Below, one piece after another: positions 5,107 to 64,000 of a stretch of DNA of 64,000 bases; the first letter of the stretch is position 1; each line of letters begins with the position of its first letter. This stretch comes from a virus. Location of the stretch: IMG/VR virus record IMGVR_UViG_3300047491_001507. One strand, given 5' to 3'. The translations under genes and the position numbers were made by a program. The notes beneath the pieces are model-generated. The model was not told the DNA's origin and ran no database searches. It worked only from the letters and a program-made list of their open reading frames with translations.

Positions 5107-5126
5107 ATTAATTACCTCTTATTCAA

Positions 5127-6020
5127 TTAGCTTTGTACAATACCTGAAAGAACCAACAGATCGTTCAGCGGTTCGTCCTCGCCCTTTGGAGGATTTTTGC
5201 TGCTGCTCGATGGATCAGTTGCATACTCAGCAATAATTTGCTCAGCAACAACTCTTTGACCACGCCCGCTTGCATTCTTTACTTTACTTTCTCTTTCTTG
5301 CTTTTTCAGTTGAGAAGCTTCTGTGAGTAATTGGCTTGCTTCTTTAACTTGCTCATTGAGTTTGTTATTTTGGGCAGACAATTTAACATTACGGGCTTCC
5401 ACGATACGTAATTGACCTTTAAGTTGTTCAAGTTGTTTATTTGTTTCTTCTAAGCGAGAAGTAGCAACTTGAGATAGCTGATCACCTTCTACGTATCGAG
5501 AGAGTAGTTCAGCCATTTTTTCGACAACAACACGCTGTTCAGCGAGTTGGGGGTCACTAAGAACATCACGTTTAGCGTGTTCATAGATTTCGGATTCTTG
5601 TAGATTTAAGAATTGATCAACTTTATCAACGATGAAGTCTTTCATATTCTTAAGTTTGCTATCGAATTCTTCATAGAGTTCGACTTCGATATTTTCGTTT
5701 TTACCTTTTTCTTTTTGGAGTTCTTGGTAAGCCTCTTCAAAACCTTCTTCTAGAGCGTGTTCTAATTCTTCACGTTGCTCATCAAGACGGTTCATAAGAG
5801 AGGCAATAATTTCATAAGCCTGTTGATACCCCTGTTCAGCAATGGCTTCATTAGCCGTTTTCTCTTCTGTGATTTGCTCATAAGCTTCATTCAATTTAGC
5901 TTGAAATTCTGCTTCAAGTTCCTCAACTTGTTCAGCAACCATAGTTTCAACTGCACTAGCTACTTCGCCAACCTGTTCTTCAGGAAGAATCTTCTTTAGT
6001 GATTCAATGATTTTATCCAT
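5127..6020 (-). CDS. scaffolding protein
   Basis: 297 aa, strongly acidic and Q/E/K-rich with heptad-like coiled-coil character. It sits between the prohead protease and the major capsid protein. Confidence 0.5.
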   Translation of the reverse strand: MDKIIESLKKILPEEQVGEVASAVETMVAEQVEELEAEFQAKLNEAYEQITEEKTANEAIAEQGYQQAYEIIASLMNRLDEQREELEHALEEGFEEAYQELQKEKGKNENIEVELYEEFDSKLKNMKDFIVDKVDQFLNLQESEIYEHAKRDVLSDPQLAEQRVVVEKMAELLSRYVEGDQLSQVATSRLEETNKQLEQLKGQLRIVEARNVKLSAQNNKLNEQVKEASQLLTEASQLKKQERESKVKNASGRGQRVVAEQIIAEYATDPSSSSKNPPKGEDEPLNDLLVLSGIVQS

Positions 6021-6700
6021 TATTGCAACCTCGATTTATAATTCTGAGTTTTAGATCTTACAAAGCCGCCCAAGCAAGCGATCAATGCCTCTTTATTAAC
6101 TTTATGTATGCTGCTAGATTCATTTTTAGCAGAAGAAAGTGGCTGAATTTTAGAGAAATTTACGCTTTCTCTTTTAGGTTTCGAAACAACCTTATCTTGA
6201 AATGCGGCAAACGTACTCGGATCAGCAACAGCGTCAAAGGTAATTAATCTATAAGATTCACCAATAACGAGGATGCCGTCCTCATTAACCTTACCATTTC
6301 CTACACCTCTGGAAGAAATGCCTACTCTAACATTATCCTCGATAAGAGCTTTAAGAACTTTACCGTGGGGTGTATTGAGAATTTCTCCTTCGCCCATAAG
6401 GATGTTTCCATCCCACCATAGTTTGGTAACAATATGTGAGGCATTGGCGAAGTGGATAATACTATCAGTTGGATGATCTAGTTCACCGATTAGTCTTCGT
6501 TCGGCAATAGCTTCATTAAGACGTTCAACGTTTTCACTAAGAACATCAAACGGATACATGCGTTTATTTTTGTTAACAGCTTCGGCTTCTTGGAATTTAC
6601 CACGGAATTTAACGAGCCCACCTGAGTGGGTGGACTCGCTTAATTGTAATTCATTAAAGCCAGAGCCTAAACAACAATCTATTAATAACATTTGATCCAT
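6020..6700 (-). CDS. prohead maturation protease, HK97 gp4-like (S78 family)
   Basis: GELDHP supplies the conserved His region. VRVGISSRGVGNGKV and RLITFDAVADPSTFAA resemble the vSiGF and EvSlV..PA blocks of S78 proteases. Its position is between the portal and scaffold genes. Confidence 0.6.
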   Translation of the reverse strand: MDQMLLIDCCLGSGFNELQLSESTHSGGLVKFRGKFQEAEAVNKNKRMYPFDVLSENVERLNEAIAERRLIGELDHPTDSIIHFANASHIVTKLWWDGNILMGEGEILNTPHGKVLKALIEDNVRVGISSRGVGNGKVNEDGILVIGESYRLITFDAVADPSTFAAFQDKVVSKPKRESVNFSKIQPLSSAKNESSSIHKVNKEALIACLGGFVRSKTQNYKSRLQ

Positions 6701-8403: not shown

Positions 8404-8587
8404 AATATATAACTCCTCGATTGTTTATTGCTTTGTAGGCATCTAACCTTAATATGTTGTTGCTTAGCACTACAGCTTTTGTTATTTTTATATACTCTGC
8501 TGGTTGTAATTTTAAACAAAATCTTACTAAATAGTTTATCTATTCGCTAATATTAGATATATAGAAACAACTTTAAAGGGGATTCAG

Positions 8588-12305: not shown

Positions 12306-12362
12306 ATTAACTCCTTGACGATACTGTATTATAGTATATTTATGAAAAACACAACAATAATC

Positions 12363-12701
12363 ATGACTCACCTTTGTTCAGGTCATGAGCAATTAATAAA
12401 TGAGTTAATGAAAAACCCTCATTTTGATCACTTTGAAACTAAAGGTCTTCATCATTATGATGACTTCCAGATACTATTTAATAATCCGCATCGCAAAAAT
12501 GATAAAAAAGCGGTTTGGGGAACGACTATTTTTCATAATCAAGACCTAACATGTTTTTCATTAATCAAACATTGTAATTTTATTTATTATAGTAAAAAGT
12601 ATGATCCTAGTATGTCCATCAGTGCTTTATCTTATCGATATAGAATTACGGGTATGAAGATTTGGCATAATAGAACAGGCGGTGAATGGTTAGTCGTTTA
12701 G
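12363..12701 (+). CDS. hypothetical protein filling the gap between portal and the upstream gene
   Basis: This is the only ORF that covers the 12306-12689 gap. The start at MTHLCSG has no clear Shine-Dalgarno site. Confidence 0.2.
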   Translation: MTHLCSGHEQLINELMKNPHFDHFETKGLHHYDDFQILFNNPHRKNDKKAVWGTTIFHNQDLTCFSLIKHCNFIYYSKKYDPSMSISALSYRYRITGMKIWHNRTGGEWLVV

Positions 12702-13052
12702 AAGTTGGTTATCAGTTTCTGTTTCGTTAGATTGTTTCTCTAAATCTTTAATCTTTTGTTGTTCTGTTGAAATCATAGCATTCAATTTCTCTAGTGATTT
12801 TTTAGCTTCAGCAATACTAGTAACAGGCATATTGGCTACTCCTGCTTCAATATTTTTCCACCAACTTTCATGTTGAGTTTGATTGGCTTTTCTTTTTTGG
12901 TATTGGCTTTGTTCTATTTCTTCAATATTTTGCAAAGCTCTTTTGATGTTTTTCTTAGCTTCCATTGTGGCAGGACATTGTGGCAGATAGGAAGTTGCTC
13001 CTAATGCTTGTGTGAGAAGACTTTTGGCACGTTTGATTTCTGTAAAATTCAT
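12690..13052 (-). CDS. hypothetical coiled-coil protein
   Basis: 120-aa ORF between the terminase and portal genes. Confidence 0.4.
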   Translation of the reverse strand: MNFTEIKRAKSLLTQALGATSYLPQCPATMEAKKNIKRALQNIEEIEQSQYQKRKANQTQHESWWKNIEAGVANMPVTSIAEAKKSLEKLNAMISTEQQKIKDLEKQSNETETDNQLLND

Positions 13053-13072
13053 AATTTATCCTTTTGTGGCAA

Positions 13073-14887
13073 TCACCACCCGAACTCCCTCAAGAGATTA
13101 TCATTTGCTCTTCTTTTATAGCCAGATCCAAATAACAAATCATCATCATCAGAACGATTGATATTTTCAAAAAGCTGTAATTCCTCACCTTCTGAAAAAT
13201 CATTGATATTTTTGGCTAATTCTTGTTTGATTTCTTCATAGATTTCTGCTTTAAATACTTCGGTATATTGATTTGTATCTCCTAAAACGGGAGATTGTCG
13301 CATGGCAACATCTCTAGCATATAATGCTAAGCACAATGCCATAATAGCGTCATCATGAAAACCTTTAGTTGCTTCTGCTCGTTTTGTTTGGGAATTCCAG
13401 ATAAAACCTTTCAATTCTTTAACAAACCGCCTGCTACGAATAGCAATGCTTTGGTTGACCAATCTAGTTTGCATAGTTTCTAAGAAAGTAGAACGATTGC
13501 TGCTAGTGGTTTTAATTCCTGGCTTAGAGTTTCTACCTTGAGAACTTTCAAACAGGTTGTCATAATAGAAATCGTGTTGTAGTTTTTCTAGAACTGTTAA
13601 GCCAGCACTTTGACTTTCCACAACGATGATAGCGTTATTATAAGTTTGTCCAACCATAGCAAGAATTTGAGCAAAATGGTGAGGTGGACAGATATTGCTA
13701 TAAAATTCTGCTACTTGTTCACAGGTCACAGCATCAATTACTTCAAAACAGCTATTATCTCCTTCCTCGCCCATGCCTTCAGCAGCATCTACGCCAATAA
13801 TATAATCTCGTCCCTCAATAGGTTCTCGCCAAATATACAAGGCACCACGAATCCAGTTTTCCACATCTGTAATACGTTGCTCTTTTATTTCTCCACGATT
13901 ATTCCATTGAGGAAATAGCATTTTAGTGGGTTCAATTTCTCGTGTAATTATATCTAGATCATTGATAATATCTGGAGGAATATAAGAATCGCCAGCCCCC
14001 AAGAAGTCACGCATAACTTCTTGTAGCCAGCCTTTTTCGCCTAATTGGGCACGAGTTTGCTTGACCCATTCCTCATCGTCGTAATCTGGATGTTCCCAGT
14101 AATCCAATTCAATTACGAAGAAGTCATTTTCGCCTTTTTTCGCTCCCATGAATGTGTCATAGTACCAATTACCCACGCCATTTACCGTGGAGATACAAAT
14201 GCAGTGACCACCAGTACTAATGGTGGGGAACATAGCTTTCCAATGTTTTTCCATTTGTGGAACGTATGCAGCTTCGTCTAGAATAAGATAAGTGATAGAA
14301 CGTCCACGAGCAGCTTCGGGGGTGTAGAAGAATAATTTACAGCCAGTATCGGAGAAGATTTTTTGGTGGTCATTATTTTTCTCCATTTCGGGCTTCATCC
14401 AGCTTGGCAACTCGATTAAAGCACGTTTAGCAACTTCTCCAGCGGCAATAGCTTCACGATCAGACTTAGATAGAACCATAATGGTTTCATCTAATTTAAA
14501 TAAGCATCGCCAAATAGCCCAAATAACAGTAACGGTGGTCAAACCTCCTTGACGGAATTTTGAAAGAATGTTGAATCTTTGATTTTCATATTCTTGACAG
14601 CAGCGACGTTGATACTTATAAGGGATAAAAGGAATTAGACCACGTTTAGGATGAGCGATCTTAATATACTTATGGCAGAAATAGGGGAAGGACATAGCAC
14701 ATTTGAGCAGTTCCCTCTGTCTAGTTTCTGCATCATAGGCTTCAATTTCTTCGAAGCTTTCTAAAGGATCTATCTCTAATTCATACTTATTGAATTCATA
14801 ATATTTTGGATCATATTCATTGAGATAGAAATCTTTTAAATTGGTATATTTTTTCTTCCAATTAGGATCTATTTCTTTAAAAGGCAC
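13073..14887 (-). CDS. terL: terminase large subunit
   Basis: GTG start after TTAAGGAG. ATPase motifs are SKFRQGGLTT (Walker A-like) and ITYLILDEAAYV (Walker B). Nuclease-domain motifs are IIGVDAAEGMGEEGDNS and KGFHDDAIMAL. Confidence 0.8.
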   Translation of the reverse strand: MPFKEIDPNWKKKYTNLKDFYLNEYDPKYYEFNKYELEIDPLESFEEIEAYDAETRQRELLKCAMSFPYFCHKYIKIAHPKRGLIPFIPYKYQRRCCQEYENQRFNILSKFRQGGLTTVTVIWAIWRCLFKLDETIMVLSKSDREAIAAGEVAKRALIELPSWMKPEMEKNNDHQKIFSDTGCKLFFYTPEAARGRSITYLILDEAAYVPQMEKHWKAMFPTISTGGHCICISTVNGVGNWYYDTFMGAKKGENDFFVIELDYWEHPDYDDEEWVKQTRAQLGEKGWLQEVMRDFLGAGDSYIPPDIINDLDIITREIEPTKMLFPQWNNRGEIKEQRITDVENWIRGALYIWREPIEGRDYIIGVDAAEGMGEEGDNSCFEVIDAVTCEQVAEFYSNICPPHHFAQILAMVGQTYNNAIIVVESQSAGLTVLEKLQHDFYYDNLFESSQGRNSKPGIKTTSSNRSTFLETMQTRLVNQSIAIRSRRFVKELKGFIWNSQTKRAEATKGFHDDAIMALCLALYARDVAMRQSPVLGDTNQYTEVFKAEIYEEIKQELAKNINDFSEGEELQLFENINRSDDDDLLFGSGYKRRANDNLLREFGW

Positions 14888-14934
14888 AAAATCTCCTTAA
14901 TGTGATAAGGTATTTAGTGCTATTAGGCTAAGTT

Positions 14935-15816
14935 TTAATCTAGGAACTTACAGAGGTATTCTTGTTGCCAGCCTTTTTGTCCTAATCCTGCTTTGAGTTG
15001 TTTTACCCGATCTTTGTTGTTTGGATCATCACGATAATCTAATTTGAATTTTTTGAATCCATGTCTCTTAGCGTTTGTAAACACATTATGGAACCAGTTG
15101 TTTTTGCCGTTTGGAGTGGAGAAGCAAGCACAATGTCCATTTTTACTAATGATTGGAAGCAAAGATTTCCAACATTCATCCATTTTCGAAATGAATGCAA
15201 CTTCTTCCATAAATAAATAATCGATAGAACATCCTGGGCTTAATGTATGAGAATTAAGAATAAATAATCTACTATCAGTATTAATATTGCAGAAATTTTT
15301 TGGACGGACATACATTTCTGGTTTCATCCAAGCGGGAAGTGCTTCCAATGCATATTTTATGATGTTTTCTATATCAAGGCATTCTCTTTCATGTCTCACC
15401 ATAATGCTAATCGTTTCATCTGGTTTAAACGAAAATCGCCAAAGGCTGTATATTGCATTGAGAGTACTGAATCCGCCTTGACGGAATTTTGAGAAAATAC
15501 TAAAGTTATTATTTTCATATGCTTTAACACAACTTCGTTGACAGTTATGCAGGATAAATGGAACCAAATCTTGTTCAGGGCGTCTGATTTTTACATATTT
15601 GTGGCAAAAATAGGGGAAGAATGCAGCACATTTTAGGATTTCTTGTTTTTGGATTCTTGTGCTGTATGCTTCAATTTCTTCTTTAGTTTCTAGAGGATCT
15701 ATTTGGAGTTCGTACTTATCAAATTCATAATATTTTGGGTCATATTCATTTCTATAAAAGCTTCCCAGAAATGGGTATTTTTCTTTCCAATTTGGATCTA
15801 CTCGTTTAAAAGACAT
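14935..15816 (-). CDS. terminase large-subunit ATPase-domain paralog that lacks the nuclease domain
   Basis: It aligns along its full length with the N-terminal ~300 aa of TerL (VDPNWKEKYPFLGSFYRNEYDPKYYEFDKYELQIDPLE vs IDPNWKKKYTNLKDFYLNEYDPKYYEFNKYELEIDPLE; SKFRQGGFST vs SKFRQGGLTT). Walker B reads YLFMEE where TerL has YLILDE. I chose the ATG after TTCAGGAGAAAA as the start. Confidence 0.6.
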   Translation of the reverse strand: MSFKRVDPNWKEKYPFLGSFYRNEYDPKYYEFDKYELQIDPLETKEEIEAYSTRIQKQEILKCAAFFPYFCHKYVKIRRPEQDLVPFILHNCQRSCVKAYENNNFSIFSKFRQGGFSTLNAIYSLWRFSFKPDETISIMVRHERECLDIENIIKYALEALPAWMKPEMYVRPKNFCNINTDSRLFILNSHTLSPGCSIDYLFMEEVAFISKMDECWKSLLPIISKNGHCACFSTPNGKNNWFHNVFTNAKRHGFKKFKLDYRDDPNNKDRVKQLKAGLGQKGWQQEYLCKFLD

Positions 15817-15884
15817 TTTTCTCCTGAATATTTGTTTCAATAGCTATAATACATTATAGTGTTTTAATCAGAAAAAGAGGAAAT

Positions 15885-16982
15885 ATGAAAAAAGAACTGC
15901 TAATTGTTGGGATTATTATTGTTGACATATTAGTTGTCGTTTGGGCATATGACAAACGAAAAAATAAAGTAAATATAGAGAACAAGCCAACTAACAATTC
16001 GATTACTCAAATAGACCCAATTGTTCCTCCTAAGCCCACTTATACCTTGCAAAATGCTATAGATTCTATTAAGGCAGATGGGTTGAAAAGTATGGTCGAG
16101 TATCTTTCGAGCGATGAGCTTGAAGGCAGGAAGACAGGTTCGCCTGGAATGGAAAAGGCCAGAGATTTTCTGCTTAAAGAATTAACAGACTGCAAATTGC
16201 CAGCAAAAACCGATGTGTTTAAATTAATTTCGGCTAAGGGCGAAAATGTATATGCATGGATGGAAGGCAGCGAGAAAGGCGATGAGATAGTGGTAGTAGG
16301 AGCACATTATGATCATTTAGGAAAGAAGGCTGGCAAAATCAATCCTGGTGCAGATGACAATGCATCTGGCACAGCCGCAGTTTTGGCAATGGCTAAAGCA
16401 TTATCTAAATTGCAAGGACAAAATAAAAGAACAATTGTATTTCAGTTTTATGCTGGAGAAGAGCAAGGTTTATTAGGAAGTGAATTTTATGTTGAAAATC
16501 CAAAATTTCCATTAAAAAATCCTTCCATTAAACAGCATATTTTCATGGAAAATTTAGACATGATTGGGCATGGCAATTTTGAACAGGCATCTTCGATAGA
16601 CAGTCCAATAAGCGGATTGATCAATAGCTTTAAGGACAAATATCCATTTGCTGCAAAAATTACCACTGATGGATCAAACGGTTCTGACCATGCATCATTT
16701 CGAAGGGCTGGAGTGCCTGTTATAATGATACATACAGGACTTCATGGTAAATACCACACACCGGCAGACAAACCTGATACGTTAAATTATAAGAATATGG
16801 AAAAAATTACTCAATTTGGTCTTGAATTACTTTGGGAAGTTTGTCAGAATGGCACGAACATTAAGGTGAGTGATATTCAGGTTAGATCCGAAGCGTTTTT
16901 GGATCATGGTGTTACTCCGTTTGAAAAAGTTATCGATCATGCCACTGAAAGGAAAGACGATGAATTACAAAGAAAGAATTAA
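15885..16982 (+). CDS. M28-family zinc aminopeptidase with an N-terminal membrane anchor
   Basis: Motifs are GAHYDHLG, GADDNASGTAAVLAMAKAL, EEQGLLGSEFY and LDMIGHG. The N-terminus has the TM helix LLIVGIIIVDILVVVWAY. An AAGAGGAA Shine-Dalgarno site precedes the start. Confidence 0.7.
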   Translation: MKKELLIVGIIIVDILVVVWAYDKRKNKVNIENKPTNNSITQIDPIVPPKPTYTLQNAIDSIKADGLKSMVEYLSSDELEGRKTGSPGMEKARDFLLKELTDCKLPAKTDVFKLISAKGENVYAWMEGSEKGDEIVVVGAHYDHLGKKAGKINPGADDNASGTAAVLAMAKALSKLQGQNKRTIVFQFYAGEEQGLLGSEFYVENPKFPLKNPSIKQHIFMENLDMIGHGNFEQASSIDSPISGLINSFKDKYPFAAKITTDGSNGSDHASFRRAGVPVIMIHTGLHGKYHTPADKPDTLNYKNMEKITQFGLELLWEVCQNGTNIKVSDIQVRSEAFLDHGVTPFEKVIDHATERKDDELQRKN

Positions 16983-17313
16983 GCTTGAGAATTTCGTAAA
17001 GGATTTGGCAAAGAGTTCAAAGCCTGTTGCAAGATTTTATTACAAAGGTTCGCACAGTCATCCTGTGCGACGAACGGTATTAATTACTGAAGAAACTCCG
17101 ACTATGATTACTGGTTTGGAATTTCGTGAAGGATCACATGTGCGTAATTTGAAACAGGCGTTAAAAACCATTCGCAGTTATCGAAAAAGCAAAATTGCTA
17201 AGTGGGGAGATTATAGTCGCTTGATGAAATCGCAAGCAACATCTAAAAAGAATCCGAAGAGTACTACGTTGAAGAGGTTTCCGGCAGTGAGTATTTTTTC
17301 AGAAGTAAGTTAA
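16960..17313 (+). CDS. hypothetical basic protein
   Basis: The start MNYKERIK overlaps the 3' end of the peptidase gene and follows AAAGGAAA. A terminator lies downstream. Confidence 0.4.
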   Translation: MNYKERIKLENFVKDLAKSSKPVARFYYKGSHSHPVRRTVLITEETPTMITGLEFREGSHVRNLKQALKTIRSYRKSKIAKWGDYSRLMKSQATSKKNPKSTTLKRFPAVSIFSEVS

Positions 17314-17332
17314 CCTCACTTCACCTTCGTAA

Positions 17333-17360
17333 ACCGCAGGGTTAATTGCCCTGCGGTTTT
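17333..17360 (+). terminator. rho-independent terminator
   Basis: CCGCAGGG-ttaattg-CCCTGCGG followed by TTTTTTTT. Confidence 0.65.
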
Positions 17361-17462
17361 TTTTATTAATGGAAGAAAATTATTAAAGATTGTTTCTAAT
17401 TCTGGTTTTTTGGGAACAATTTTTTTTATTGTTTTAGATGAAGTTATATGAATTTTGTAGGA

Positions 17463-17491
17463 GGGAAAGTTGTAAAGCTTACAACTTTCCC
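17463..17491. promoter_or_regulatory. perfect 13-bp inverted repeat with a 3-nt loop, a hairpin or operator
   Basis: GGGAAAGTTGTAA-agc-TTACAACTTTCCC. It lies between convergent genes, 33 nt past the stop of the minus-strand gene at 17524. Confidence 0.4.
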
Positions 17492-17523
17492 AATCCTTAT
17501 AATCGCTCACGGATCATCCTAGA

Positions 17524-18048
17524 TTACATTAAGAAATATACATATCCAATAAACGCAACATTAACCAATAAGATTGCTGCCAAAACCAAATTGATTACTA
17601 GTTTGTTTTGGTTTTTTTCTTCAACATTCTTTTCTACCAATGCTTGGGCAGTAAGAGGAATATTGGAAACAGGCGGATCTTTAATTTGCATTTGATAAGT
17701 TAATCTACTAACCATTTCGTCCAAATCTGCTTTTGTAGCAAAAGAGTTTTCAGGGACTTCTGGTGCTTTTACAGCAATTCGTTCTCTTATTTGCAATGGC
17801 ACATCAGGTTCAGTAGAAAGAACTTCTTGCTGAACGACTTCTCCATTTTGGAATGTTTGACGAGTTTCTTTCGCTACTACATTTTTGTATTCACGAATTA
17901 TACGTTGTTCTATGTGAAGTGGCTTTACTTCTTCAGCAAATAGCTCAATCACTTCGTTGCCGTTTTCGTCAACATACGAATGACGCTCTGCAAGACGACC
18001 ATCTTCTAAACTAATTTTCTGAACAGCGATTTTGGATTCTTGTGTCAT
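17524..18048 (-). CDS. tail-anchored membrane protein
   Basis: 174 aa with a C-terminal TM helix (LVINLVLAAILLVNVAFIGYVYFLM). Confidence 0.45.
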   Translation of the reverse strand: MTQESKIAVQKISLEDGRLAERHSYVDENGNEVIELFAEEVKPLHIEQRIIREYKNVVAKETRQTFQNGEVVQQEVLSTEPDVPLQIRERIAVKAPEVPENSFATKADLDEMVSRLTYQMQIKDPPVSNIPLTAQALVEKNVEEKNQNKLVINLVLAAILLVNVAFIGYVYFLM

Positions 18049-18111
18049 AAATTTTCCCTCTATGTCGAATAATATATTTACTATAGGAAGCTATTTTTTT
18101 AGAAATCTATT

Positions 18112-18690
18112 TTATAATCCCCAACGTTCTTTAAGGACTCTCCAATAAGATATTTTGTTTTTTTCAATTTTTCTCTTTAATTCTTGATTTTCTTCAATTT
18201 TTCTCTTTTTAGCAGCTTTTTTTGCTTGTTCGTACAATTTGGCAATCAAATCTTCCCAAACTTTCTGAGGATTATAGCATTGTAGCTCCCCTGCCAACTC
18301 TTTATAAACCAAAAATCCCTTATAATGAACCTCAATTCGTTGATTTGTTTGAAAATATTTAATTTCAAGATGCATGGCTCTACTTAAACCATCAAAAACA
18401 TAACCTTCAATTGTGGAAAAATCATCTCCCATATCCTGGATTTTGTCGCTGCCCATCAATGGACCTTGTTGTCCACTGGCTGTTATTTCATATTCATTGT
18501 CGCTGTCATCTTCATAATAATCTTCTAAAAAACTAGGGTTGTACAAACCGCTACCTTGACGAATAATTGGATGACCAAAAGTTGTAACAATAATACCTAG
18601 TTTTCCAGCTACTCCCATTAAATTTTTTTTAGTAGCCTCAATGGTTCGAATTTCTTTTATCGCTTTTTCTTTTGGGGATTCATTTGACAT
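18112..18690 (-). CDS. hypothetical protein
   Basis: I prefer the ATG at 18688-18690 (MSNESPK) to the TTG listed in the ORF track. The gene diverges from the metalloprotease gene. Confidence 0.35.
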   Translation of the reverse strand: MSNESPKEKAIKEIRTIEATKKNLMGVAGKLGIIVTTFGHPIIRQGSGLYNPSFLEDYYEDDSDNEYEITASGQQGPLMGSDKIQDMGDDFSTIEGYVFDGLSRAMHLEIKYFQTNQRIEVHYKGFLVYKELAGELQCYNPQKVWEDLIAKLYEQAKKAAKKRKIEENQELKRKIEKNKISYWRVLKERWGL

Positions 18691-18712
18691 AATATATAAT
18701 GTAGGGGTAATT

Positions 18713-20140
18713 ATGAGTATTTTAAAAAATATTTTCAATGCTTTTCGATCTAGTAGGATTATCAGGACTGTTAAACGTCCACCTTCTACACCTGTGCCGC
18801 CACCTACTCCACAGCCAATTCAGTATTTGTTGAGTGATATGTTCACTCCTAATCTGGTTAAGCCAATTGATCCTTCTATTAAAGCAGTAGGCCCTCCTTT
18901 TGTAGTTAAAAATTATAAAGGGGGAGGATATAATCGAGGGACTTTAGAAGCAGTTTCTGCTAATTGTTACGTTACCATGTGTAATGTATTGAATTTTTTG
19001 CCTAAATATTCCTTGCAAGAAATAAATCGTTGGGCTGTAGTACAGAACTTGATGGTCAATCCCTTGGCTGGACAAAATTTAAATGCTTTTTACAATAGAA
19101 TTTCCCTTCAATTTTTTTATTTTTCCCATCCATCACTTTCATCCACATTATTTCTAGCAGATTCTGCTGATGTGGTTTCACACGAATTAGGACATGCGAT
19201 TTTTGACATATATCGTCCTGCTGGATTTAACGCCGCTTTAATTGAAGTTGCTGGGGCTCATGAAGGAATTGCCGATTTCTTTTCTATGCTAAATGCTCTA
19301 AGTTATTCAGAAGTAATGGCTTACGCAATAAATCAAGTCAATGGGGATTTAAGAAAGCCTAATTTAATTTCAGGATTGGCAGAAGATACTGGCCGTGTGA
19401 TCAATCAACTTACCGGCAATAGACACAATGTCAATTGTTTGAGAAACGCAATTAATAATTACAATTATGTTCCTCCTTCAGAGTTACCTGTAGAAGCTCC
19501 TGATGATCAGTTGTCCTCAGAATGCCATAGTTTTGGCAAGATTTTGGCGGGTACTTTTTATGATATTTTGGTAGCTCTTTATGAAAAGAAATTAACAGAA
19601 GACAAGAATCCTGTAAATGCATTAGCATATGCTCGTGATACTTTGGCTGTTTTAGTTATTTGGGCCATTAGAAAGGCTCCGTTGAATGTTAGATATTACG
19701 AATCTTTAGCCAAAACAATACTTTGGGTGGATCAAACTAAATTTTCTGGAGCAAATCAACAATTATTAAAACAGATTTTTTTGAATAGAAAATTAATTTC
19801 TGATCAAATCAAAATATTATCTGCGATGCCAAAGTGCAATGATTACACAAAGATCAAATACTCCAAAAATACTCTTGTAACAAAGCTTTCAGATCATTTT
19901 ATTGGAATTCAATCCAACAATCCTTTGTATAACACATCGATTGAAATTCCAAATGATCAGGCGATATTTTATGATTTACATGGGAATTGCATGGATTTTA
20001 CATCATTTAGTGCCAGTGAGGCAGTAAAAGGTGGGCAAGAAATGGTTCGTTATTTGCATGAAGGAAATAAGGTCAATAATGATCCTTTTTCGCAATTTAA
20101 GATTGAAAACGGCAAATTAATTAGAAATTGCTTTTTTTGA
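18713..20140 (+). CDS. zinc metalloprotease with an HEXXH motif
   Basis: VVSHELGHAIFDIY contains HELGH. The start MSILKN follows GTAGGGG. The N-terminal region is Pro-rich (PPSTPVPPPTPQP). Confidence 0.5.
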   Translation: MSILKNIFNAFRSSRIIRTVKRPPSTPVPPPTPQPIQYLLSDMFTPNLVKPIDPSIKAVGPPFVVKNYKGGGYNRGTLEAVSANCYVTMCNVLNFLPKYSLQEINRWAVVQNLMVNPLAGQNLNAFYNRISLQFFYFSHPSLSSTLFLADSADVVSHELGHAIFDIYRPAGFNAALIEVAGAHEGIADFFSMLNALSYSEVMAYAINQVNGDLRKPNLISGLAEDTGRVINQLTGNRHNVNCLRNAINNYNYVPPSELPVEAPDDQLSSECHSFGKILAGTFYDILVALYEKKLTEDKNPVNALAYARDTLAVLVIWAIRKAPLNVRYYESLAKTILWVDQTKFSGANQQLLKQIFLNRKLISDQIKILSAMPKCNDYTKIKYSKNTLVTKLSDHFIGIQSNNPLYNTSIEIPNDQAIFYDLHGNCMDFTSFSASEAVKGGQEMVRYLHEGNKVNNDPFSQFKIENGKLIRNCFF

Positions 20141-20427
20141 GGTGTAATATGGGTTCTTGCTGTAATGGTCCAGGGCGTTGGTCGCCAGAATATAATAAAA
20201 AATGGAAACCAGAAAACAATTCAGGTTGTTCTTGTGGCGGTAAAAGCTTAGGATGTAATAATCCTAGTCTTGCCTTGACAGACTCCCCACGCTGGCAATG
20301 GGAACAGGTTCATGGCAAATTAGTGACCAATTTTACCTGGGAAAATGATGACAATGGACATATAGTCATGAAGATTACACGCACTCCTTGTCCTAAAACA
20401 TCTCCACAAACGTCAAAACGTTGTTAA
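20128..20427 (+). CDS. small Cys-rich protein
   Basis: 99 aa with CCNG, CSCGG and C...C. It overlaps the end of the protease gene by 13 nt. Confidence 0.35.
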   Translation: MLFLRCNMGSCCNGPGRWSPEYNKKWKPENNSGCSCGGKSLGCNNPSLALTDSPRWQWEQVHGKLVTNFTWENDDNGHIVMKITRTPCPKTSPQTSKRC

Positions 20428-20451
20428 ATTTTTAAAAAATTTAAAGAGATC

Positions 20452-20482
20452 TTGCAAAAAAATATTTTTTTGATTCTAATAT
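20452..20482 (+). promoter_or_regulatory. putative promoter, TTGCAA-17-TCTAAT or TAATAT
   Basis: TTGCAAaaaaatatttttttgatTCTAATAT lies upstream of an AAGGAG Shine-Dalgarno site and the ATG at 20525. Confidence 0.25.
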
Positions 20483-20524
20483 ACTCTCAACGCTGTTTCA
20501 TTTATTCATCACAAGGAGCAAAAT

Positions 20525-20881
20525 ATGAGGTATCGAGAAGAATCTTGGTCAGAATGGCTAGAAGAGGCATGGTTAGAAGAAGCAAAAGGCGATTTTATTC
20601 CAACAGTTCAATTTGAATTGAATGAAGACGATGACGACGATGAAGACGATTGGGATGACGATGACCAAGATGATTATGACGATGACGACTATGATGACGA
20701 CGACTATGATGAAGATGATTATGACGATGATGATTATGATGACGACTATGATTGGAGCAATGGCAGTTTTGATGATGAAGATGAAGATGAAGACGAAGAT
20801 GACGATTATGATTACGACGACGATGATTATGACGATGATGACGATTATGATTATGACGACGACGATGAAGACGACGAATGA
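20525..20881 (+). CDS. extremely acidic D/Y-repeat protein
   Basis: 118 aa. A WLEEAWLEEA N-terminus is followed by about 85 aa of DDDDY and DED repeats. The underlying DNA is tandem GATGACGACGACTAT-type repeats. Confidence 0.5.
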   Translation: MRYREESWSEWLEEAWLEEAKGDFIPTVQFELNEDDDDDEDDWDDDDQDDYDDDDYDDDDYDEDDYDDDDYDDDYDWSNGSFDDEDEDEDEDDDYDYDDDDYDDDDDYDYDDDDEDDE

Positions 20882-20999
20882 TTTTTTCTTTTATCTCGTC
20901 GCATAAATTTTCTATTTTTTGGAATGTCAAAAGTAGGAAATGCTCCAACTCCTTTATTTGCATCGTCCATATGCATGGCTTGTAAATCGAAAGACGCAC

Positions 21000-21038
21000 T
21001 ATCCGGCCCGCCTCCTGGGCCGGATAAATTTTCTATTT
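21000..21038 (+). terminator. rho-independent terminator with a GC-rich 10-bp stem
   Basis: TATCCGGCCC-gcctcct-GGGCCGGATA followed by AATTTTCTATTT. Confidence 0.5.
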
Positions 21039-21099
21039 GTAACCAATTTTTAAATCGCATGTATTATATATTCACAAAGAGTAAAAAGGCTGGTGTAAA

Positions 21100-21630
21100 A
21101 TGAATAAAAAGCCATGGCATGGAATCATGAAAGTCTTAGAAGTATCTGTCTGGGACAATAATCAAATTATCAGACAAGAGAAGAACATATTAAATATGTT
21201 TCATAATGACGGGGAAAGATTCCTTTTAGAAGCAGCATTTGTTGGCGGTCAAGTAAGTAGCGTTATACCAGAAAATTACTTTCTTGGCTTAGACAATAGG
21301 GCTGAAGTTCTTGTTGGAGATGATATGAGCACCATTTATAATGGCGGCTCTCCTAAAGAACCAATAGGATCAGGCTACCAACGTCAATCCATCGGTTCAG
21401 AAAATGATTTCTCTATTAATTTTGTCTCCGATCATTATGTGGCAACCAGTCCAATTGTGTCATTTCAAGCCACAACTGCTGATTGGATAACAGTTTACAA
21501 TTTATTTCTCACTGATCAAAATACTTATGATGGTTATTTGATAGCAACTGCTGTTCTTTCGGCTCCACTTACAGTGGCCGCAGGACAAATAATCACAGTA
21601 AGAATTGGCATGCAACTTAAAGACTGTTAA
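21100..21630 (+). CDS. hypothetical protein
   Basis: 176-aa ORF. A TTGTAA hexamer upstream at 21037-21042 suggests a promoter. Confidence 0.4.
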   Translation: MNKKPWHGIMKVLEVSVWDNNQIIRQEKNILNMFHNDGERFLLEAAFVGGQVSSVIPENYFLGLDNRAEVLVGDDMSTIYNGGSPKEPIGSGYQRQSIGSENDFSINFVSDHYVATSPIVSFQATTADWITVYNLFLTDQNTYDGYLIATAVLSAPLTVAAGQIITVRIGMQLKDC

Positions 21631-22102
21631 TCAATTCTTCAATATCGGCAATTTTAACAAAATGTGTCACTTGAATTCTTTTCTCTCCTTTTTGTAATAC
21701 ATTTTGTTCACGATATGCCATGTATTTGCAGCCTCCGTCTTTGTTATTTAACAAATTTACAGAAGAGACTTCGCCAATACATCTTGAGTACAAATCATCT
21801 AATAAATCTATATTAGAATTGCTTAATTGTCTCCATTCATCATCAGAAATATCCAAAGATGATCCTGCTCGATAAGGGAGGCATATTTCATACCCATCAG
21901 ACCTAATTTTGATCGGCACTTCTTGCTTGTCATTTTTCAAATAATAATTGCAAAAAATTTCTTTAGCCGGTTCAGAAGTCACATTGTTCATAAACCATAC
22001 TGGAACAGAAACTCCAACTGTAACCAGTTCTATGCCTTCGTGTAAGGCATATCTTTGTTTCTCTGTCAAATGGATAATGTGTTGAATAGTTAGATTTAAC
22101 AT
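21617..22102 (-). CDS. hypothetical protein
   Basis: 161-aa ORF convergent with 21100..21630. Confidence 0.4.
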   Translation of the reverse strand: MLNLTIQHIIHLTEKQRYALHEGIELVTVGVSVPVWFMNNVTSEPAKEIFCNYYLKNDKQEVPIKIRSDGYEICLPYRAGSSLDISDDEWRQLSNSNIDLLDDLYSRCIGEVSSVNLLNNKDGGCKYMAYREQNVLQKGEKRIQVTHFVKIADIEELINSL

Positions 22103-22144
22103 TTTGTTTTAATATATATTAGTAACATCGTTGATGGAGCATGT

Positions 22145-23074
22145 ATGCAAAAATATAATATTTCAGTAATAATATCGTTATTGTTTCTCGTTAGTATCGG
22201 GTCATTTGTTTACAAATACTTGGAGAAAAAGCCAAAATACAATTTGACAATTAATAGAATTGACAAAATGCCTTTAGTGCAAGATGATCCTTTTGCTCAT
22301 CTTGCTAAAGGTGGCGTCCCTCAAGAACAAAGAGATGAAAAATTTAGAAAATGGCTTTCTCCTTGTATGAAAATTAAAGTCAAAAATGCATCAGGATCTG
22401 GAACTATTGTCTATTATGATTCTAAAGAAAATTATGCATATTTGCAATCTTGCGGGCATTTATGGAGCGGTGATGTATCAGCCGAAGAGGCCAAACGAAG
22501 AGCTATAAAGTGTAAAGTAATTACTTGGTATCATAATGATCAAAAACTGAATGAGCCAAAAGAATACAATGCTGAAGTTCTCTATTTTAGCAATAGTCGA
22601 GGTAGAGATTGTAGTTTATTACGATTCCAGCCTGATTGGAAGCCAAATTATTTACCTATCGCCCCTGCTGATTTTAAATTAGAGGAAAATTATAGATTAC
22701 ATTCTGTTGGTTGTGATGGAGGCGAAGAAGTCGCTCATTATGATGTTAAATATATTGGCACCAAAAAAGTCACAGAAGATGGATGGTATGATTGGGTAAC
22801 AACAGAAAATAGCCCCAGACCAGGGAGATCTGGTGGCGGTTTAATGACAGATAATTATTATGTTGGTATTTGTTGGGGCACATCTGAGTATGACGGAACA
22901 GGCAATGGGTTTTTTACTCCTTTAAGCACAGTTCGACAATATAACAAAATGAATGGATATGACTGGTTAAATGATGTAGGACACGATTGGATACAAAACA
23001 TCCCCATTATTGACAGAAATAATCCACAAAAAGAATATCCAAAAGATTATATTCCATTACCAGGAAGATTCTAA
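22145..23074 (+). CDS. trypsin-like serine protease with an N-terminal TM anchor
   Basis: QSCGHLW supplies the His, GRDCSLLRF the Asp and PGRSGGGLM the Ser (GDSGGPL-like), in the correct order and spacing. The TM helix is ISVIISLLFLVSIGSFVY. A GGAG Shine-Dalgarno site precedes the start. Confidence 0.5.
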   Translation: MQKYNISVIISLLFLVSIGSFVYKYLEKKPKYNLTINRIDKMPLVQDDPFAHLAKGGVPQEQRDEKFRKWLSPCMKIKVKNASGSGTIVYYDSKENYAYLQSCGHLWSGDVSAEEAKRRAIKCKVITWYHNDQKLNEPKEYNAEVLYFSNSRGRDCSLLRFQPDWKPNYLPIAPADFKLEENYRLHSVGCDGGEEVAHYDVKYIGTKKVTEDGWYDWVTTENSPRPGRSGGGLMTDNYYVGICWGTSEYDGTGNGFFTPLSTVRQYNKMNGYDWLNDVGHDWIQNIPIIDRNNPQKEYPKDYIPLPGRF

Positions 23075-62899: not shown

Positions 62900-63106
62900 A
62901 TGGAATTGGAATTTTGTACCAATCAACAACTTATCGATGAATTGGTAAACCGCTCTACTTTTGCTGGAATTATTATTTACTCTGAAGATGAAAACAGAGA
63001 TATTTTACAAAATCATGATCAATTCGATTTAGTAACCAAAACTTCCCCGCAAGAAACTATTGATGTACTAGAAGCAGCTATTCAAGAGTTGCAGCCTCTT
63101 ATTTAA
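62900..63106 (+). CDS. small acidic hypothetical protein
   Basis: 68-aa ORF three nucleotides after the previous stop. Confidence 0.3.
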   Translation: MELEFCTNQQLIDELVNRSTFAGIIIYSEDENRDILQNHDQFDLVTKTSPQETIDVLEAAIQELQPLI

Positions 63107-64000
63107 CGCTTTCACTTAAAAAATAAACAAATGATTCATATGTCTTGTTTAATTCAGAAAGTATTTCAATATCATTAGGAGTCTTCTGCTCTTCTCCAAA
63201 TTCTATTACTAACGAAAAACAACCGTGACGATAATACCAATCAGCTTCCGTGCCAAATATTGGATATCCATAATTGTTCCGTAATTGTAGTTTCTTGTAG
63301 CCACTTAATTCAGTCATCTTGCTTAATATTTTGCGGTATTTAGCATCGTCTGGAGTTCTGTCTGATGTGTCTCCATATGGGTATAAAAATACTTGACCAT
63401 TACTATGCCCCGATATGGCTGCTGCTGGCTTGATTTTTAGAAAAAATTCCTTCAGTCGTTCTATTGGAATACATGAATCTCTTTCTGGATAACGGTATTC
63501 AGAAAAATCTCGGTTTGGATCTACTCCATCTACATACCGACTTTCTTGATAACTATCTGGACTCACCACTGGTATAAAATATAAATCCCGATTGTCCAAT
63601 AGCTCTTTTATCTCTGGTCTAGATTGATATTCCACTAACAAACGACCTATGTAATCCATTATCATAGCTGTCGAATATAATTCATTGCCATGAATGGTTC
63701 CTGTCGCTAATATTACTGGCTGCATTCTTTTGCTTGGATTAATCCTAAAATACACCAAATCTCTATTGCCAGAAGACTTACCGTATGTACCTATTTCGGT
63801 ATTTTCGGGACATTCTTTGTGCCATTCATTTAATTGAACGATTAATTGATGATAGTTCAAAATACTAGGTGACGGATTGTTTATTCTATATGGAATTGCT
63901 TCTTTTTCTTCTAATAACAAAGAAAATCCGCCACTTTCTATTAAATTATTTCGTTTTCCTGCTAAAATTAAGAGTAATACAAATATTGTTATATTAACTA
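63099..64000 (-). CDS. M14-family zinc carboxypeptidase, N-terminal part beyond the window
   Basis: ILATGTIHGNELYS carries the HxxE zinc site. ISGHSNGQVFLYPYG matches the second M14 His block. The reading frame stays open to position 64000 and there encodes a hydrophobic signal or anchor (NITIFVLLLILAG). Confidence 0.6.
   Translation of the reverse strand, partial: VNITIFVLLLILAGKRNNLIESGGFSLLLEEKEAIPYRINNPSPSILNYHQLIVQLNEWHKECPENTEIGTYGKSSGNRDLVYFRINPSKRMQPVILATGTIHGNELYSTAMIMDYIGRLLVEYQSRPEIKELLDNRDLYFIPVVSPDSYQESRYVDGVDPNRDFSEYRYPERDSCIPIERLKEFFLKIKPAAAISGHSNGQVFLYPYGDTSDRTPDDAKYRKILSKMTELSGYKKLQLRNNYGYPIFGTEADWYYRHGCFSLVIEFGEEQKTPNDIEILSELNKTYESFVYFLSESVK

What the first reader, a model, noticed from the sequence alone, without database searches (positions are those of the whole stretch)
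15885..23074. Set of membrane-anchored or secreted proteases in the accessory region
The genome carries an M28 aminopeptidase with a signal anchor, an HEXXH metalloprotease at 18713..20140, a trypsin-like serine protease with a TM anchor at 22145..23074 and an M14 carboxypeptidase with a signal anchor at 63099..64000. Four extracytoplasmic peptidases of different classes is unusual for a phage. They could degrade an S-layer, capsule or cell-wall peptide, or process virion proteins. They could also act as superinfection-exclusion or host-modulation factors.
Basis: partly seen in the sequence, partly recalled or inferred. Interest (0 to 1): 0.55.

Follow-up and report, generated by a model that had tools for sequence, protein, structure and literature searches.

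The report
Membrane-anchored peptidase set of huge phages
A huge, uncultivated T4-like phage carries four intact protein-cutting enzymes of four different families, three of them anchored in the membrane. The set is conserved across its whole clade but almost absent from sequenced phages, which suggests a still untested way for phages to attack or remodel the host cell envelope.

Summary
The window encodes four peptidases: an M28 peptidase (15885-16982), a thermolysin/fungalysin-fold HEXXH enzyme (18713-20140), a chymotrypsin-fold serine protease (22145-23074) and an M14 carboxypeptidase (63099-64000, minus strand, 7 codons cut off). All catalytic residues are invariant across their homologues. 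A separate T4 gp21-type prohead protease lies at 6020-6700.

They are phage genes, not host genes, and the region is not accessory. The blocks TerL-M28-...-HEXXH and fibre-like/o161/protease/PD-(D/E)XK/primase are syntenic in 80+ contigs of up to 693 kb. The serine protease is about as conserved as the terminase. GenBank phages almost lack these genes.

M28, the serine protease and M14 are the only genes in the window with an N-terminal hydrophobic anchor. It is an uncleaved 18-20-residue helix. In M28 and M14 a 30-40-residue Pro/Lys/Glu-rich stalk follows it.

The serine protease's conserved C-terminal tail recurs on unrelated proteins that have classical signal peptides, which argues for a periplasmic location. 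The HEXXH enzyme has no export signal. Its Cys-rich C-terminal module is a separate gene here and is fused in relatives.

Best reading (about 45%): an inner-membrane-anchored, periplasm-facing set of endo-, amino- and carboxypeptidases that digests envelope proteins. The topology and the substrates are inferred, not shown.

The parts
15885..16982 (+). M28 metallopeptidase (365 aa). N-terminal membrane anchor at residues ~5-22 (nt 15897-15950), Pro/Lys-rich linker to about residue 52, then a co-catalytic zinc aminopeptidase-type domain.
   Evidence: Pfam PF04389, E 1.4e-41. Ligands align with SGAP/AAP and are invariant in 36 homologues. Anchor. Linker composition. Divergently adjacent to TerL in relatives.
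18713..20140 (+). Thermolysin/fungalysin-fold gluzincin (475 aa). HELGH lies at nt 19181-19195, and the third ligand motif H-E184-xxx-D188 follows. It has no signal peptide, transmembrane segment or propeptide. The N-terminus is a short amphipathic helix followed by a basic/Pro-rich linker, and there is a C-terminal beta domain.
   Evidence: Invariant residues. Model pLDDT 90.4. Foldseek hits to M36/M4. N-termini of 80 homologues. 3,293 representatives in the profile search.
20149..20427 (+). Cys-rich 92-aa protein. It is the split-off C-terminal module of the HEXXH protease. It lies in the -1 frame, and the two frames meet at a T7 run (20132-20138) that overlaps the TGA stop.
   Evidence: The homologous segment is fused to the protease in L102 (570 aa) and in the 532-575-aa homologues. 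Sequence. The module is a separate gene in L002 and L003.
22145..23074 (+). Chymotrypsin-fold serine protease (309 aa). Features: N-terminal membrane anchor (about nt 22157-22213); His105 (22457-22459), Asp155 (22607-22609) and Ser229 (22829-22831); conserved disordered C-terminal tail IPIIDRNNPQxxYPxDYIPLP (about nt 23000-23062).
   Evidence: Pfam Trypsin_2. 541 homologues at 54-79% identity. Invariant triad. Model and Foldseek hits. Tail shared with signal-peptide proteins.
63099..64000 (-). M14 zinc carboxypeptidase. 299 of its 306 codons are in the window, and the start lies 21 nt beyond the window end. It has an N-terminal membrane anchor and a linker.
   Evidence: Pfam PF00246, E 3.3e-32. 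Full sequence P0201. Catalytic residues invariant in 120 homologues. Found on the same contigs as the serine protease.
18112..18690 (-). Conserved 192-aa protein of unknown function. It is always divergently adjacent to the HEXXH gene and could be a partner of it.
   Evidence: Synteny in 48-53 loci and in LR756511.1. No Pfam, PHROG or PADLOC hit.
17524..18048 (-). Conserved tail-anchored membrane protein (174 aa, C-terminal transmembrane segment at residues 150-168) in the same block.
   Evidence: Transmembrane segment. Synteny in 42 loci. Homologue in L102.
6020..6700 (-). T4 gp21-type prohead serine protease. It is the canonical head-maturation protease and is given here for context. It is not one of the four.
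   Evidence: Pfam Peptidase_S77, E 2.2e-26. It lies next to the gp23-type major capsid protein at 3658-5106.

Best explanation
Shown:
- The four genes encode catalytically intact peptidases. One is an M28 aminopeptidase-type enzyme, one a thermolysin/fungalysin-fold endopeptidase, one a DegS/MarP-like chymotrypsin-fold serine endopeptidase, and one an M14 carboxypeptidase.
- They belong to the conserved gene set of a large uncultivated clade of T4-like, actin (Volactin)-encoding huge phages.
- M28, the serine protease and M14 each begin with a short basic N-terminus and an 18-20-residue uncharged helix with no cleavage motif.
- In M28 and M14 a 30-40-residue Pro/Lys/Glu-rich linker follows the helix.

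Inferred:
- The helix is an uncleaved signal-anchor that tethers the enzymes to the host inner membrane, with the catalytic domains in the periplasm.
- The linker is an extended stalk that carries M28 and M14 towards the wall and outer membrane.
- Together they form a team of one endopeptidase, one aminopeptidase and one carboxypeptidase that degrades envelope polypeptides during infection. Targets could be periplasmic, outer-membrane or wall-tethered proteins. The purpose could be to loosen the envelope for release of very large virions, to destroy receptors, or to recycle amino acids.
- The HEXXH enzyme lacks an export signal. It probably works from the cytoplasmic side, together with its Cys-rich module, or reaches its site by another route.
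For: Identity and intact active sites.

Phage origin and conservation:
- The exact proteins lie on a 306-kb contig.
- Synteny is conserved in L002 (253 kb), L003 (686 kb) and 80 IMG/VR loci.
- M14 lies on the same contigs as the serine protease.
- Among 185,579 species genomes, only 4 MAG contigs carry the family, and they are labelled as unrelated taxa.
- Identity to the window in nearer / more distant relatives: TerL 75/51%, serine protease 60/47%, primase 56/37%.

Anchors:
- These are the only N-terminal hydrophobic segments among the window's genes.
- They are present in 107 of 120 serine-protease homologues and 110 of 118 M14 homologues. The N-flank carries about 1.5 K/R and almost no acidic residues.
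- The uncharged runs have a median of 18-20 residues. The linkers are 21% Pro, 11-15% Lys and 10-12% Glu.

Periplasmic side:
- The serine protease's C-terminal tail also ends two unrelated protein families that have classical cleavable signal peptides, for example ...SAFA|Q...ALA|Q and ...AQA|S.
- A lipobox lipoprotein (DUF3568) sits in the same block in relatives.
- The closest folds are the membrane-anchored periplasmic proteases MarP and DegS.
- M28, M14 and M4/M36 are, from general knowledge, mainly secreted or ecto-enzymes.
- Two heptosyltransferase-like genes point to a Gram-negative host.

The enzymes are not the head protease: gp21-type S77 is present separately.
Against: - No topology predictor was available. 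Simple K+R counts are ambiguous: the C-flank has at least as many K/R as the N-flank in most members (83 of 107 serine proteases, 101 of 110 M14). The window's own serine protease and M28 have strongly basic C-flanks. A ZipA-like orientation with the N-terminus outside and the C-terminus inside is therefore not excluded.
- In the more distant subclade, M28, HEXXH and M14 all lie between TerL and the portal, in the head/packaging module. This would fit a role at the membrane-bound prohead.
- The HEXXH protease has no export signal, so the four cannot all act in one compartment.
- No substrate, expression-timing or activity data exist.
- A shared TATATA-type upstream motif does not separate temporal classes.
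- LR756511.1, the nearest GenBank relative, lacks M28 and the serine protease. They are therefore not essential to the wider lineage.
Confidence: 0.45

Rival explanations
1. Cytoplasmic-face model. The N-terminal helices insert with the N-terminus outside and the C-terminus inside, as in ZipA. The peptidases then hang from the inner face of the membrane on their stalks, next to membrane-bound T4-type proheads. There they would degrade scaffold and core fragments released by the gp21 protease (amino-acid recycling for a giant capsid), or help detach proheads.
For: - Basic clusters lie directly after the helices, and K+R counts are higher on the C-flank in most M14 members.
- In many relatives M28, HEXXH and M14 lie between TerL and portal/gp21/MCP.
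- HEXXH has no export signal but has an N-terminal amphipathic helix plus a polybasic linker, which would fit binding to the inner leaflet.
- A tail-anchored protein is conserved in the same block.
- From general knowledge, T4 proheads assemble on the inner membrane.
Against: - The N-tails carry 1-2 K/R and almost no acidic residues, which disfavours N-tail translocation.
- The serine protease shares its C-terminal tail with proteins that have classical cleavable signal peptides.
- The enzyme families are typically extracytoplasmic.
- The serine protease gene is linked to primase and PD-(D/E)XK, not to head genes.
Confidence: 0.2
2. Lysis or cell-wall model. The anchored enzymes specifically cut peptidoglycan stem peptides, cross-links or wall-outer-membrane tethers. 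They would work as part of the lysis machinery, like SAR endolysins or as substitutes for spanins.
For: - The stalk lengths of 30-40 residues could reach the wall.
- From general knowledge, some periplasmic M14 enzymes (Csd4, Pgp1) trim muropeptides, and MarP activates a wall hydrolase.
- Very large virions need extensive opening of the envelope.
Against: - The M14 enzyme is closest to carboxypeptidases A4, T and D, and no muropeptide peptidase was among the matches.
- An M28 aminopeptidase has no free N-terminus to attack in stem peptides.
- The anchors are strongly hydrophobic (Kyte-Doolittle 2.3-2.6) and not Gly/Ala-rich like SAR domains.
- No muralytic domain and no linkage to lysis genes were seen.
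Confidence: 0.12
3. Virion cargo model, mainly for the HEXXH enzyme. The protease is packaged in the head through its N-terminal helix and basic arm, in the way T4 capsid-targeting sequences work, and is injected with the DNA to cleave host proteins.
For: - Many homologues start with M-x-L/F-...-F/L-G-F/L-E-K-V followed by an Arg/Lys/Pro-rich arm. G-x-E resembles cleavage sites of gp21-type proteases in phiKZ-like phages (from general knowledge).
- The gene is linked to TerL even in LR756511.1.
Against: - The window's own protein lacks any Glu in its first 40 residues, and several homologues lack the helix.
- There are no proteomic data.
- The model cannot apply to the three proteins with membrane anchors.
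Confidence: 0.08
4. The genes are host or contaminant genes next to a prophage, or they are decayed pseudo-enzymes.
For: None beyond the cellular origin of the enzyme families.
Against: - The genes are flanked on both sides by phage genes: portal, TerL, gp23, gp21, primase and baseplate.
- GC content is uniform.
- Synteny holds in more than 80 viral contigs.
- The family is absent from cellular genomes except 4 MAG contigs labelled as unrelated taxa.
- All catalytic residues are invariant.
Confidence: 0.02

Closest known systems
DegS / MarP (Rv3671c): membrane-anchored periplasmic chymotrypsin-fold serine proteases (HtrA-like, MEROPS S1C)
   Same: N-terminal membrane anchor followed by a chymotrypsin-fold domain with a His-Asp-Ser triad and a GxSGG-type motif. 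They are the best Foldseek matches.
   Different: - There is no PDZ domain.
- No similarity is detectable by sequence or profile to any solved structure.
- The protein has an extra conserved N-terminal segment and a conserved disordered C-terminal tail that is shared with other exported phage proteins.
- It is encoded by phages only.
Streptomyces griseus and Vibrio proteolyticus aminopeptidases (MEROPS M28)
   Same: Same Pfam family. All five zinc ligands and the catalytic Glu are present.
   Different: An uncleaved membrane anchor plus a Pro/Lys/Glu-rich stalk replaces the signal peptide and propeptide. Identity is only about 25-30%. The enzyme is phage-encoded and lies next to the terminase gene.
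Carboxypeptidases A4 and T (MEROPS M14A)
   Same: HxxE...H zinc site, and equivalents of Arg127, Asn144, Arg145, Tyr248 and Glu270.
   Different: No pro-domain. The region between the Arg127 and Asn144 equivalents is shorter. It has a membrane anchor and a stalk. Phage-encoded.
Thermolysin (M4) and fungalysin (M36) gluzincins
   Same: HEXXH plus E-xxx-D plus a distal His. The predicted fold matches.
   Different: - It fails the Pfam cut-offs, and the profile gives no PDB hit.
- It has no signal peptide and no FTP/PepSY propeptide.
- It has an N-terminal amphipathic helix plus a basic linker, an extra C-terminal beta domain, and a Cys-rich module that is either fused or separate.
- It forms a large family of its own (3,293 representatives).
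T4 gp21 prohead protease (S77)
   Same: It is a phage protease encoded near the portal and capsid genes.
   Different: It is present as a separate gene (6020-6700). The four enzymes are unrelated to it in fold and architecture.
TonB / FtsN-type periplasmic Pro-rich spacers
   Same: An N-terminal anchor is followed by a Pro/Glu/Lys-rich extended linker, with EP/KP-like runs in several M14 and M28 homologues.
   Different: This is an architectural resemblance only, not homology. ZipA has a similar design on the cytoplasmic side.

Membership tests
MEROPS M28 / Pfam PF04389 | Profile match above the curated cut-off | tested here: met
   142.8 bits against 21.3.
MEROPS M28 / Pfam PF04389 | Co-catalytic zinc ligands His, Asp, Glu, Asp, His plus the catalytic Glu | tested here: met
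   H141, D157, E192/E193, D225 and H269 align with SGAP/AAP. Invariant in 36 homologues.
MEROPS M28 / Pfam PF04389 | Aminopeptidase (exopeptidase) activity | not testable with these tools
   Needs an enzyme assay.
MEROPS M14 / Pfam PF00246 | Profile match above the curated cut-off | tested here: met
   112.7 bits against 21.6.
MEROPS M14 / Pfam PF00246 | HxxE...H zinc site and equivalents of Arg127, Asn144, Arg145, Tyr248 and Glu270 | tested here: met
   H110, E113, R161, N169, R170, H205, Y250 and E273 are invariant in 120 homologues. Alignment to CPA4.
MEROPS M14A (digestive-type carboxypeptidases) | N-terminal activation pro-domain | tested here: not met
   No propeptide domain hit. The catalytic domain follows directly after the anchor and linker.
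Thermolysin-like gluzincins (M4/M36, clan MA(E)) | Pfam M4 or M36 match above the curated cut-off | tested here: not met
   M36 15.9 bits against 23.3. M4 13.7 bits against 22.4. The profile against PDB sequences gave no hit.
Thermolysin-like gluzincins (M4/M36, clan MA(E)) | HEXXH plus a downstream Glu ligand in an E-xxx-D motif plus a distal catalytic His | tested here: met
   H157, E158, H161, E184, D188 and H272 are invariant.
Thermolysin-like gluzincins (M4/M36, clan MA(E)) | Two-lobed thermolysin fold | tested here: met
   Foldseek probability 1.0 to 4k90, 7qp3, 6ya1 and 4tnl. TM-score normalised to target 0.52-0.60. This rests on a predicted model.
Thermolysin-like gluzincins (M4/M36, clan MA(E)) | Signal peptide and FTP/PepSY propeptide | tested here: not met
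   No hydrophobic N-terminal segment in 80 homologues. No propeptide domain hit.
PA-clan serine proteases (Pfam Trypsin_2; S1) | Profile match above the curated cut-off | tested here: met
   30.0 bits against 27.6, a marginal pass.
PA-clan serine proteases (Pfam Trypsin_2; S1) | His-Asp-Ser triad in that order, with a GxSGG motif, in a double beta-barrel fold | tested here: met
   H105, D155 and S229 in GRSGGG are invariant. Foldseek E about 1e-8 to MarP, DegS and DegP. The triad geometry in the model could not be measured.
HtrA family (S1C: DegS, DegP) | C-terminal PDZ domain or domains | tested here: not met
   No PDZ hit. The protein ends in a 25-residue disordered tail.
T4 gp21 prohead protease (S77) | Peptidase_S77 profile match | tested here: not met
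   None of the four matches. A separate gene at 6020-6700 does.
SAR endolysins / phage lysis enzymes | A muralytic domain behind a weakly hydrophobic Gly/Ala-rich signal-arrest-release helix | tested here: not met
   No muralytic domain. The anchors are strongly hydrophobic.
Anti-phage defence proteins (PADLOC) | Match to a defence-system model | tested here: not met
   No hit for any of 9 proteins.

The most novel reading that the evidence does not exclude
A large clade of huge phages exports its own multi-class set of proteases into the host periplasm. The set comprises a serine endopeptidase, an M28 aminopeptidase and an M14 carboxypeptidase. In some genomes it also includes further secreted proteins that share a previously undescribed C-terminal tail ([IL]P[IV]xDRN[NG]xQGxYxx[DE]YI[PL]xP). 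The tail would act as a common docking or sorting signal. This would be a phage-specific system for remodelling or dismantling the envelope, with no described counterpart.
Probability: 0.3. Interest if true: 0.75.

Novelty: new variant of a known kind. Interest (0 to 1): 0.6.

Why it matters
Phage proteases are known mainly for head maturation and for cutting peptidoglycan. Here a set of general-purpose endo- and exopeptidases is tethered to the membrane and conserved across hundreds of huge-phage contigs. That would add a new class of phage-host interaction at the envelope, such as release of very large virions, destruction of receptors or nutrient recycling.

The finding also supplies two sizeable uncharacterised protease families: a thermolysin-fold family with 3,293 representatives (at 50% identity clustering), and a phage-only chymotrypsin-fold family that can serve as a marker gene for the clade.

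The shared C-terminal tail and the Pro-rich stalks give concrete hypotheses that can be tested in E. coli, even though the phages themselves are uncultivated.

Tried and rejected
- Host-gene or prophage-flank idea: rejected.
- 'Accessory region': rejected.
- Head-maturation protease role for the four: unlikely, because gp21-type S77 is present separately.
- Defence or anti-defence homology: no PADLOC hit.
- Sequence-level link of the HEXXH and serine-protease families to solved structures: phmmer and profile searches found nothing. Only fold-level evidence exists.
- NCBIfam: no specific subfamily for any of the four. M28 only hits LapA-type models far below their cut-offs.
- Source names for homologues: none informative.
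- Literature: no paper describing these genes was found. Al-Shayeb et al. 2020 (PMC7162821) only note that huge phages encode membrane- or surface-localised proteins. Iyer et al. 2021 (PMC7824862) discuss other jumbo-phage peptidases.
- Topology from positive-inside counts: ambiguous.
- Temporal class from promoters: a TATATA-type motif precedes the protease genes, but also structural and replication genes, so it does not discriminate.
- Identity of the tail-bearing proteins TP242 and L105-303: no Pfam or PDB match. My reading of Cys/His motifs as peptidase-like is unsupported.
- The look-up of the M14 protein's own contig failed.

Full report
**What the window is**

The window is part of a huge phage. 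It encodes:
- a T4-type portal with an intein (9690-12371);
- a large terminase (13073-14887);
- a gp23-type capsid protein (3658-5106);
- a gp21-type prohead protease (6020-6700);
- a primase;
- a Volactin-type actin homologue (28456-29496);
- baseplate proteins.

The exact proteins occur on a 306,208-bp metagenomic contig. GC content is uniform at about 0.34-0.43. The closest GenBank terminase is in LR756511.1, a 595-kb uncultured phage, at 47% identity.

**Checking the observation**

All four peptidases are present and look active.
- M28 (15885-16982) has a strong Pfam match (E 1.4e-41). It has every zinc ligand and the catalytic Glu of the Streptomyces and Vibrio aminopeptidases. These are invariant in 36 homologues.
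- The HEXXH protein (18713-20140) gives only sub-threshold M36/M4 hits and no sequence or profile hit to any solved structure. Its family keeps H157, E158, H161, E184, D188 and H272 invariant. A confident model (pLDDT 90.4) matches fungalysins and thermolysin-like enzymes. HELGH therefore sits in a zincin fold, with the gluzincin third ligand.
- The serine protease (22145-23074) passes Trypsin_2 marginally. It keeps H105, D155 and S229 (GRSGGG) invariant. It folds like MarP, DegS and DegP.
- The M14 gene is on the minus strand and loses 7 codons at the window end. The full protein is P0201. All zinc, substrate-binding and catalytic residues are invariant in 120 homologues.

**Phage genes in a conserved block, not accessory**

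Relatives on contigs of 253 kb and 686 kb show the same order: TerL, M28..., 192-aa protein, HEXXH, Cys-rich protein..., fibre-like protein, 161-aa protein, serine protease, PD-(D/E)XK, primase.

In 80 IMG/VR loci the unit fibre-like/o161/protease/PD-(D/E)XK/primase keeps its order in nearly every locus. The TerL-M28-...-HEXXH module is present in the same or in inverted orientation.

In the more distant subclade, M28, HEXXH and M14 all lie between TerL and the portal. In the window's subclade, M14 has moved next to a histidine phosphatase and a polyA-polymerase-type gene. M14 and the serine protease share at least 11 IMG/VR contigs.

Median identity to the window ranks as follows, for nearer / more distant relatives:

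| Gene | Nearer | More distant |
|---|---|---|
| TerL | 75% | 51% |
| Volactin | 74% | 65% |
| Serine protease | 60% | 47% |
| Primase | 56% | 37% |
| M28 | 44% | 41% |
| HEXXH | 42% | 33% |

The serine-protease family occurs in only 4 MAG contigs among 185,579 species genomes. Those contigs are labelled as unrelated taxa, and one is 546 kb, so they look like misbinned phage contigs.

LR756511.1 keeps the backbone and HEXXH but lacks M28 and the serine protease. Those two genes are therefore specific to this lineage, where they are widespread, although M28 is missing from some relatives whose loci span that position.

Against 50,697 GenBank phage records, the serine protease has no hit, M28 has 6 weak partial hits, M14 has 1 and HEXXH has 2. 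The set is unusual for sequenced phages but typical of this uncultivated clade. The HEXXH family alone has 3,293 representatives at 50% identity clustering.

**Architecture**

Among the window's real genes, only M28, the serine protease and M14 have an N-terminal hydrophobic segment. The families share one design:
- a 4-6-residue N-terminus with 1-2 Lys/Arg and almost no acidic residue;
- an uncharged run with a median of 18-20 residues and no AxA-type site;
- a Lys directly after the run.

M28 and M14 then have a linker with a median of 30 and 39 residues. It is about 21% Pro, 11-15% Lys and 10-12% Glu, and some members have EP/KP runs. The serine protease has a shorter linker that is not Pro-rich.

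The HEXXH family has no hydrophobic segment. Most members start with a short amphipathic helix followed by an Arg/Lys/Pro-rich stretch.

The 92-aa Cys-rich ORF downstream of HEXXH (20149-20427) is homologous to the C-terminal extension of the 570-aa HEXXH protein in L102 and in other long homologues. In the window the two frames meet at TGC TTT TTT TGA, and the second frame is -1.

**Which side of the membrane**

Simple K+R counts do not decide the question. Three observations favour the periplasm.
1. The conserved, disordered C-terminal tail of the serine protease (IPIIDRNNPQGxYPxDYIPLP) also ends two unrelated protein families in related loci. Both have classical cleavable signal peptides. 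One is a roughly 242-aa family with 10 distinct sequences (for example MGKNFLFLIIFFTNMSAFA|QMPP). The other is a 303-aa protein (…INAAQA|SPT).
2. A lipobox lipoprotein (DUF3568) lies in the same block in relatives.
3. The nearest folds are anchored periplasmic proteases, and the four enzyme families are typically extracytoplasmic (general knowledge).

Against this stand the basic C-flanks, the position inside the head/packaging module in many genomes, and the lack of an export signal on HEXXH.

**Mechanism**

My best-supported reading, at about 45%, is an inner-membrane-anchored, periplasm-facing set of endo-, amino- and carboxypeptidases acting on envelope polypeptides. HEXXH and its Cys-rich module would act separately.

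The main rival, at about 20%, places the tethered enzymes on the cytoplasmic face near membrane-bound proheads. Wall-specific lysis (12%) and virion cargo for HEXXH (8%) are less likely. Host origin or pseudo-enzymes are effectively excluded.

The purpose remains inference. Possibilities are virion release, receptor destruction or recycling of amino acids.

**Comparison with known systems, and novelty**

M28 and M14 are members of their families with an unusual anchor-plus-stalk architecture and no propeptides. The HEXXH and serine-protease families are related to known enzymes only at fold level. They fail, or barely pass, the curated profiles and lack the accessory domains that define M4/M36 (propeptide) and HtrA (PDZ).

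I found no paper describing these genes. I rate the finding as a new variant of known kinds, with moderate to high interest.

Noticed in passing
window 22997-23062; L102:8186-8917; L105:10782-11693 (-): A conserved C-terminal tail, [IL]P[IV]xDRN[NG]xQGxYxx[DE]YI[PL]xP, ends the serine protease. It also ends two unrelated protein families in related phages that have classical signal peptides. It matches no known sorting or docking motif that I could identify.
   Followed up: partly
window 20132-20140 (junction of 18713-20140 and 20149-20427): The HEXXH ORF ends in TGC TTT TTT TGA. The next ORF, in the -1 frame, is homologous to the C-terminal Cys-rich extension that is fused to the protease in distant relatives. 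This could be gene fission, programmed -1 frameshifting or slippage at the T7 run, or a homopolymer sequencing error.
   Followed up: partly
window 14935-15840 (-): A 301-aa paralogue of the N-terminal (ATPase) half of the large terminase lies directly beside TerL. In the related loci the same query only hits TerL itself, so the duplicate appears specific to this genome. L003 has a different second Terminase_6N gene.
   Followed up: partly
window 9690-12371 (-): The T4-type portal gene carries an intein, according to precomputed Pfam Intein_splicing plus Portal_T4 hits. The L102 portal also shows an intein-like insert.
   Followed up: no
window 20525-20881 (+): An extremely acidic 118-aa protein consists almost only of Asp, Glu and Tyr. 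A poly-Asp counterpart sits at the same position in L102. It could be a DNA mimic or a cation-binding protein.
   Followed up: no
window 28456-29496 (-): A Volactin-family actin homologue (Pfam E 4.2e-66) is the most conserved gene of the neighbourhood after TerL. It is present in 61 related loci and in LR756511.1.
   Followed up: partly
window 29709-30668 (-) and 32471-33340 (+): Two glycosyltransferase family 9 (heptosyltransferase-like) genes are present. This suggests LPS core modification and a Gram-negative host.
   Followed up: no
window intergenic sites, e.g. 8404-8411, 18691-18698, 21065-21072, 22111-22120, 27927-34, 36852-59, 56876-83, 62168-75: 9 of the 11 copies of TATATATT lie within about 40 nt upstream of gene starts. 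A (C)TATATA(G/T/A) motif is conserved upstream of the serine protease, HEXXH and M28 genes in relatives. It is probably a clade-specific promoter element.
   Followed up: partly
L004 (693-kb relative), 5024-5908 and 11570-16552: Near its M14 gene, this relative also encodes a rhomboid protease, an NfeD/ClpP-type protease, an AAA protein and a Clp_N protein. The clade therefore carries further membrane-associated proteolysis genes.
   Followed up: no
window 17524-18048 (-) and 18112-18690 (-): A tail-anchored membrane protein and a 192-aa protein of unknown function are conserved with the HEXXH gene across the clade. The 192-aa gene is always divergent from HEXXH and also accompanies it in LR756511.1.
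   Followed up: partly
window 60651-62111 (+) and 62195-62896 (+): A PolyA_pol-family nucleotidyltransferase (CCA-adding-like) and a histidine phosphatase flank the M14 gene. The linkage M14-His_Phos-PolyA_pol recurs in L090, L091 and L004, and L107 keeps M14 next to PolyA_pol.
   Followed up: partly
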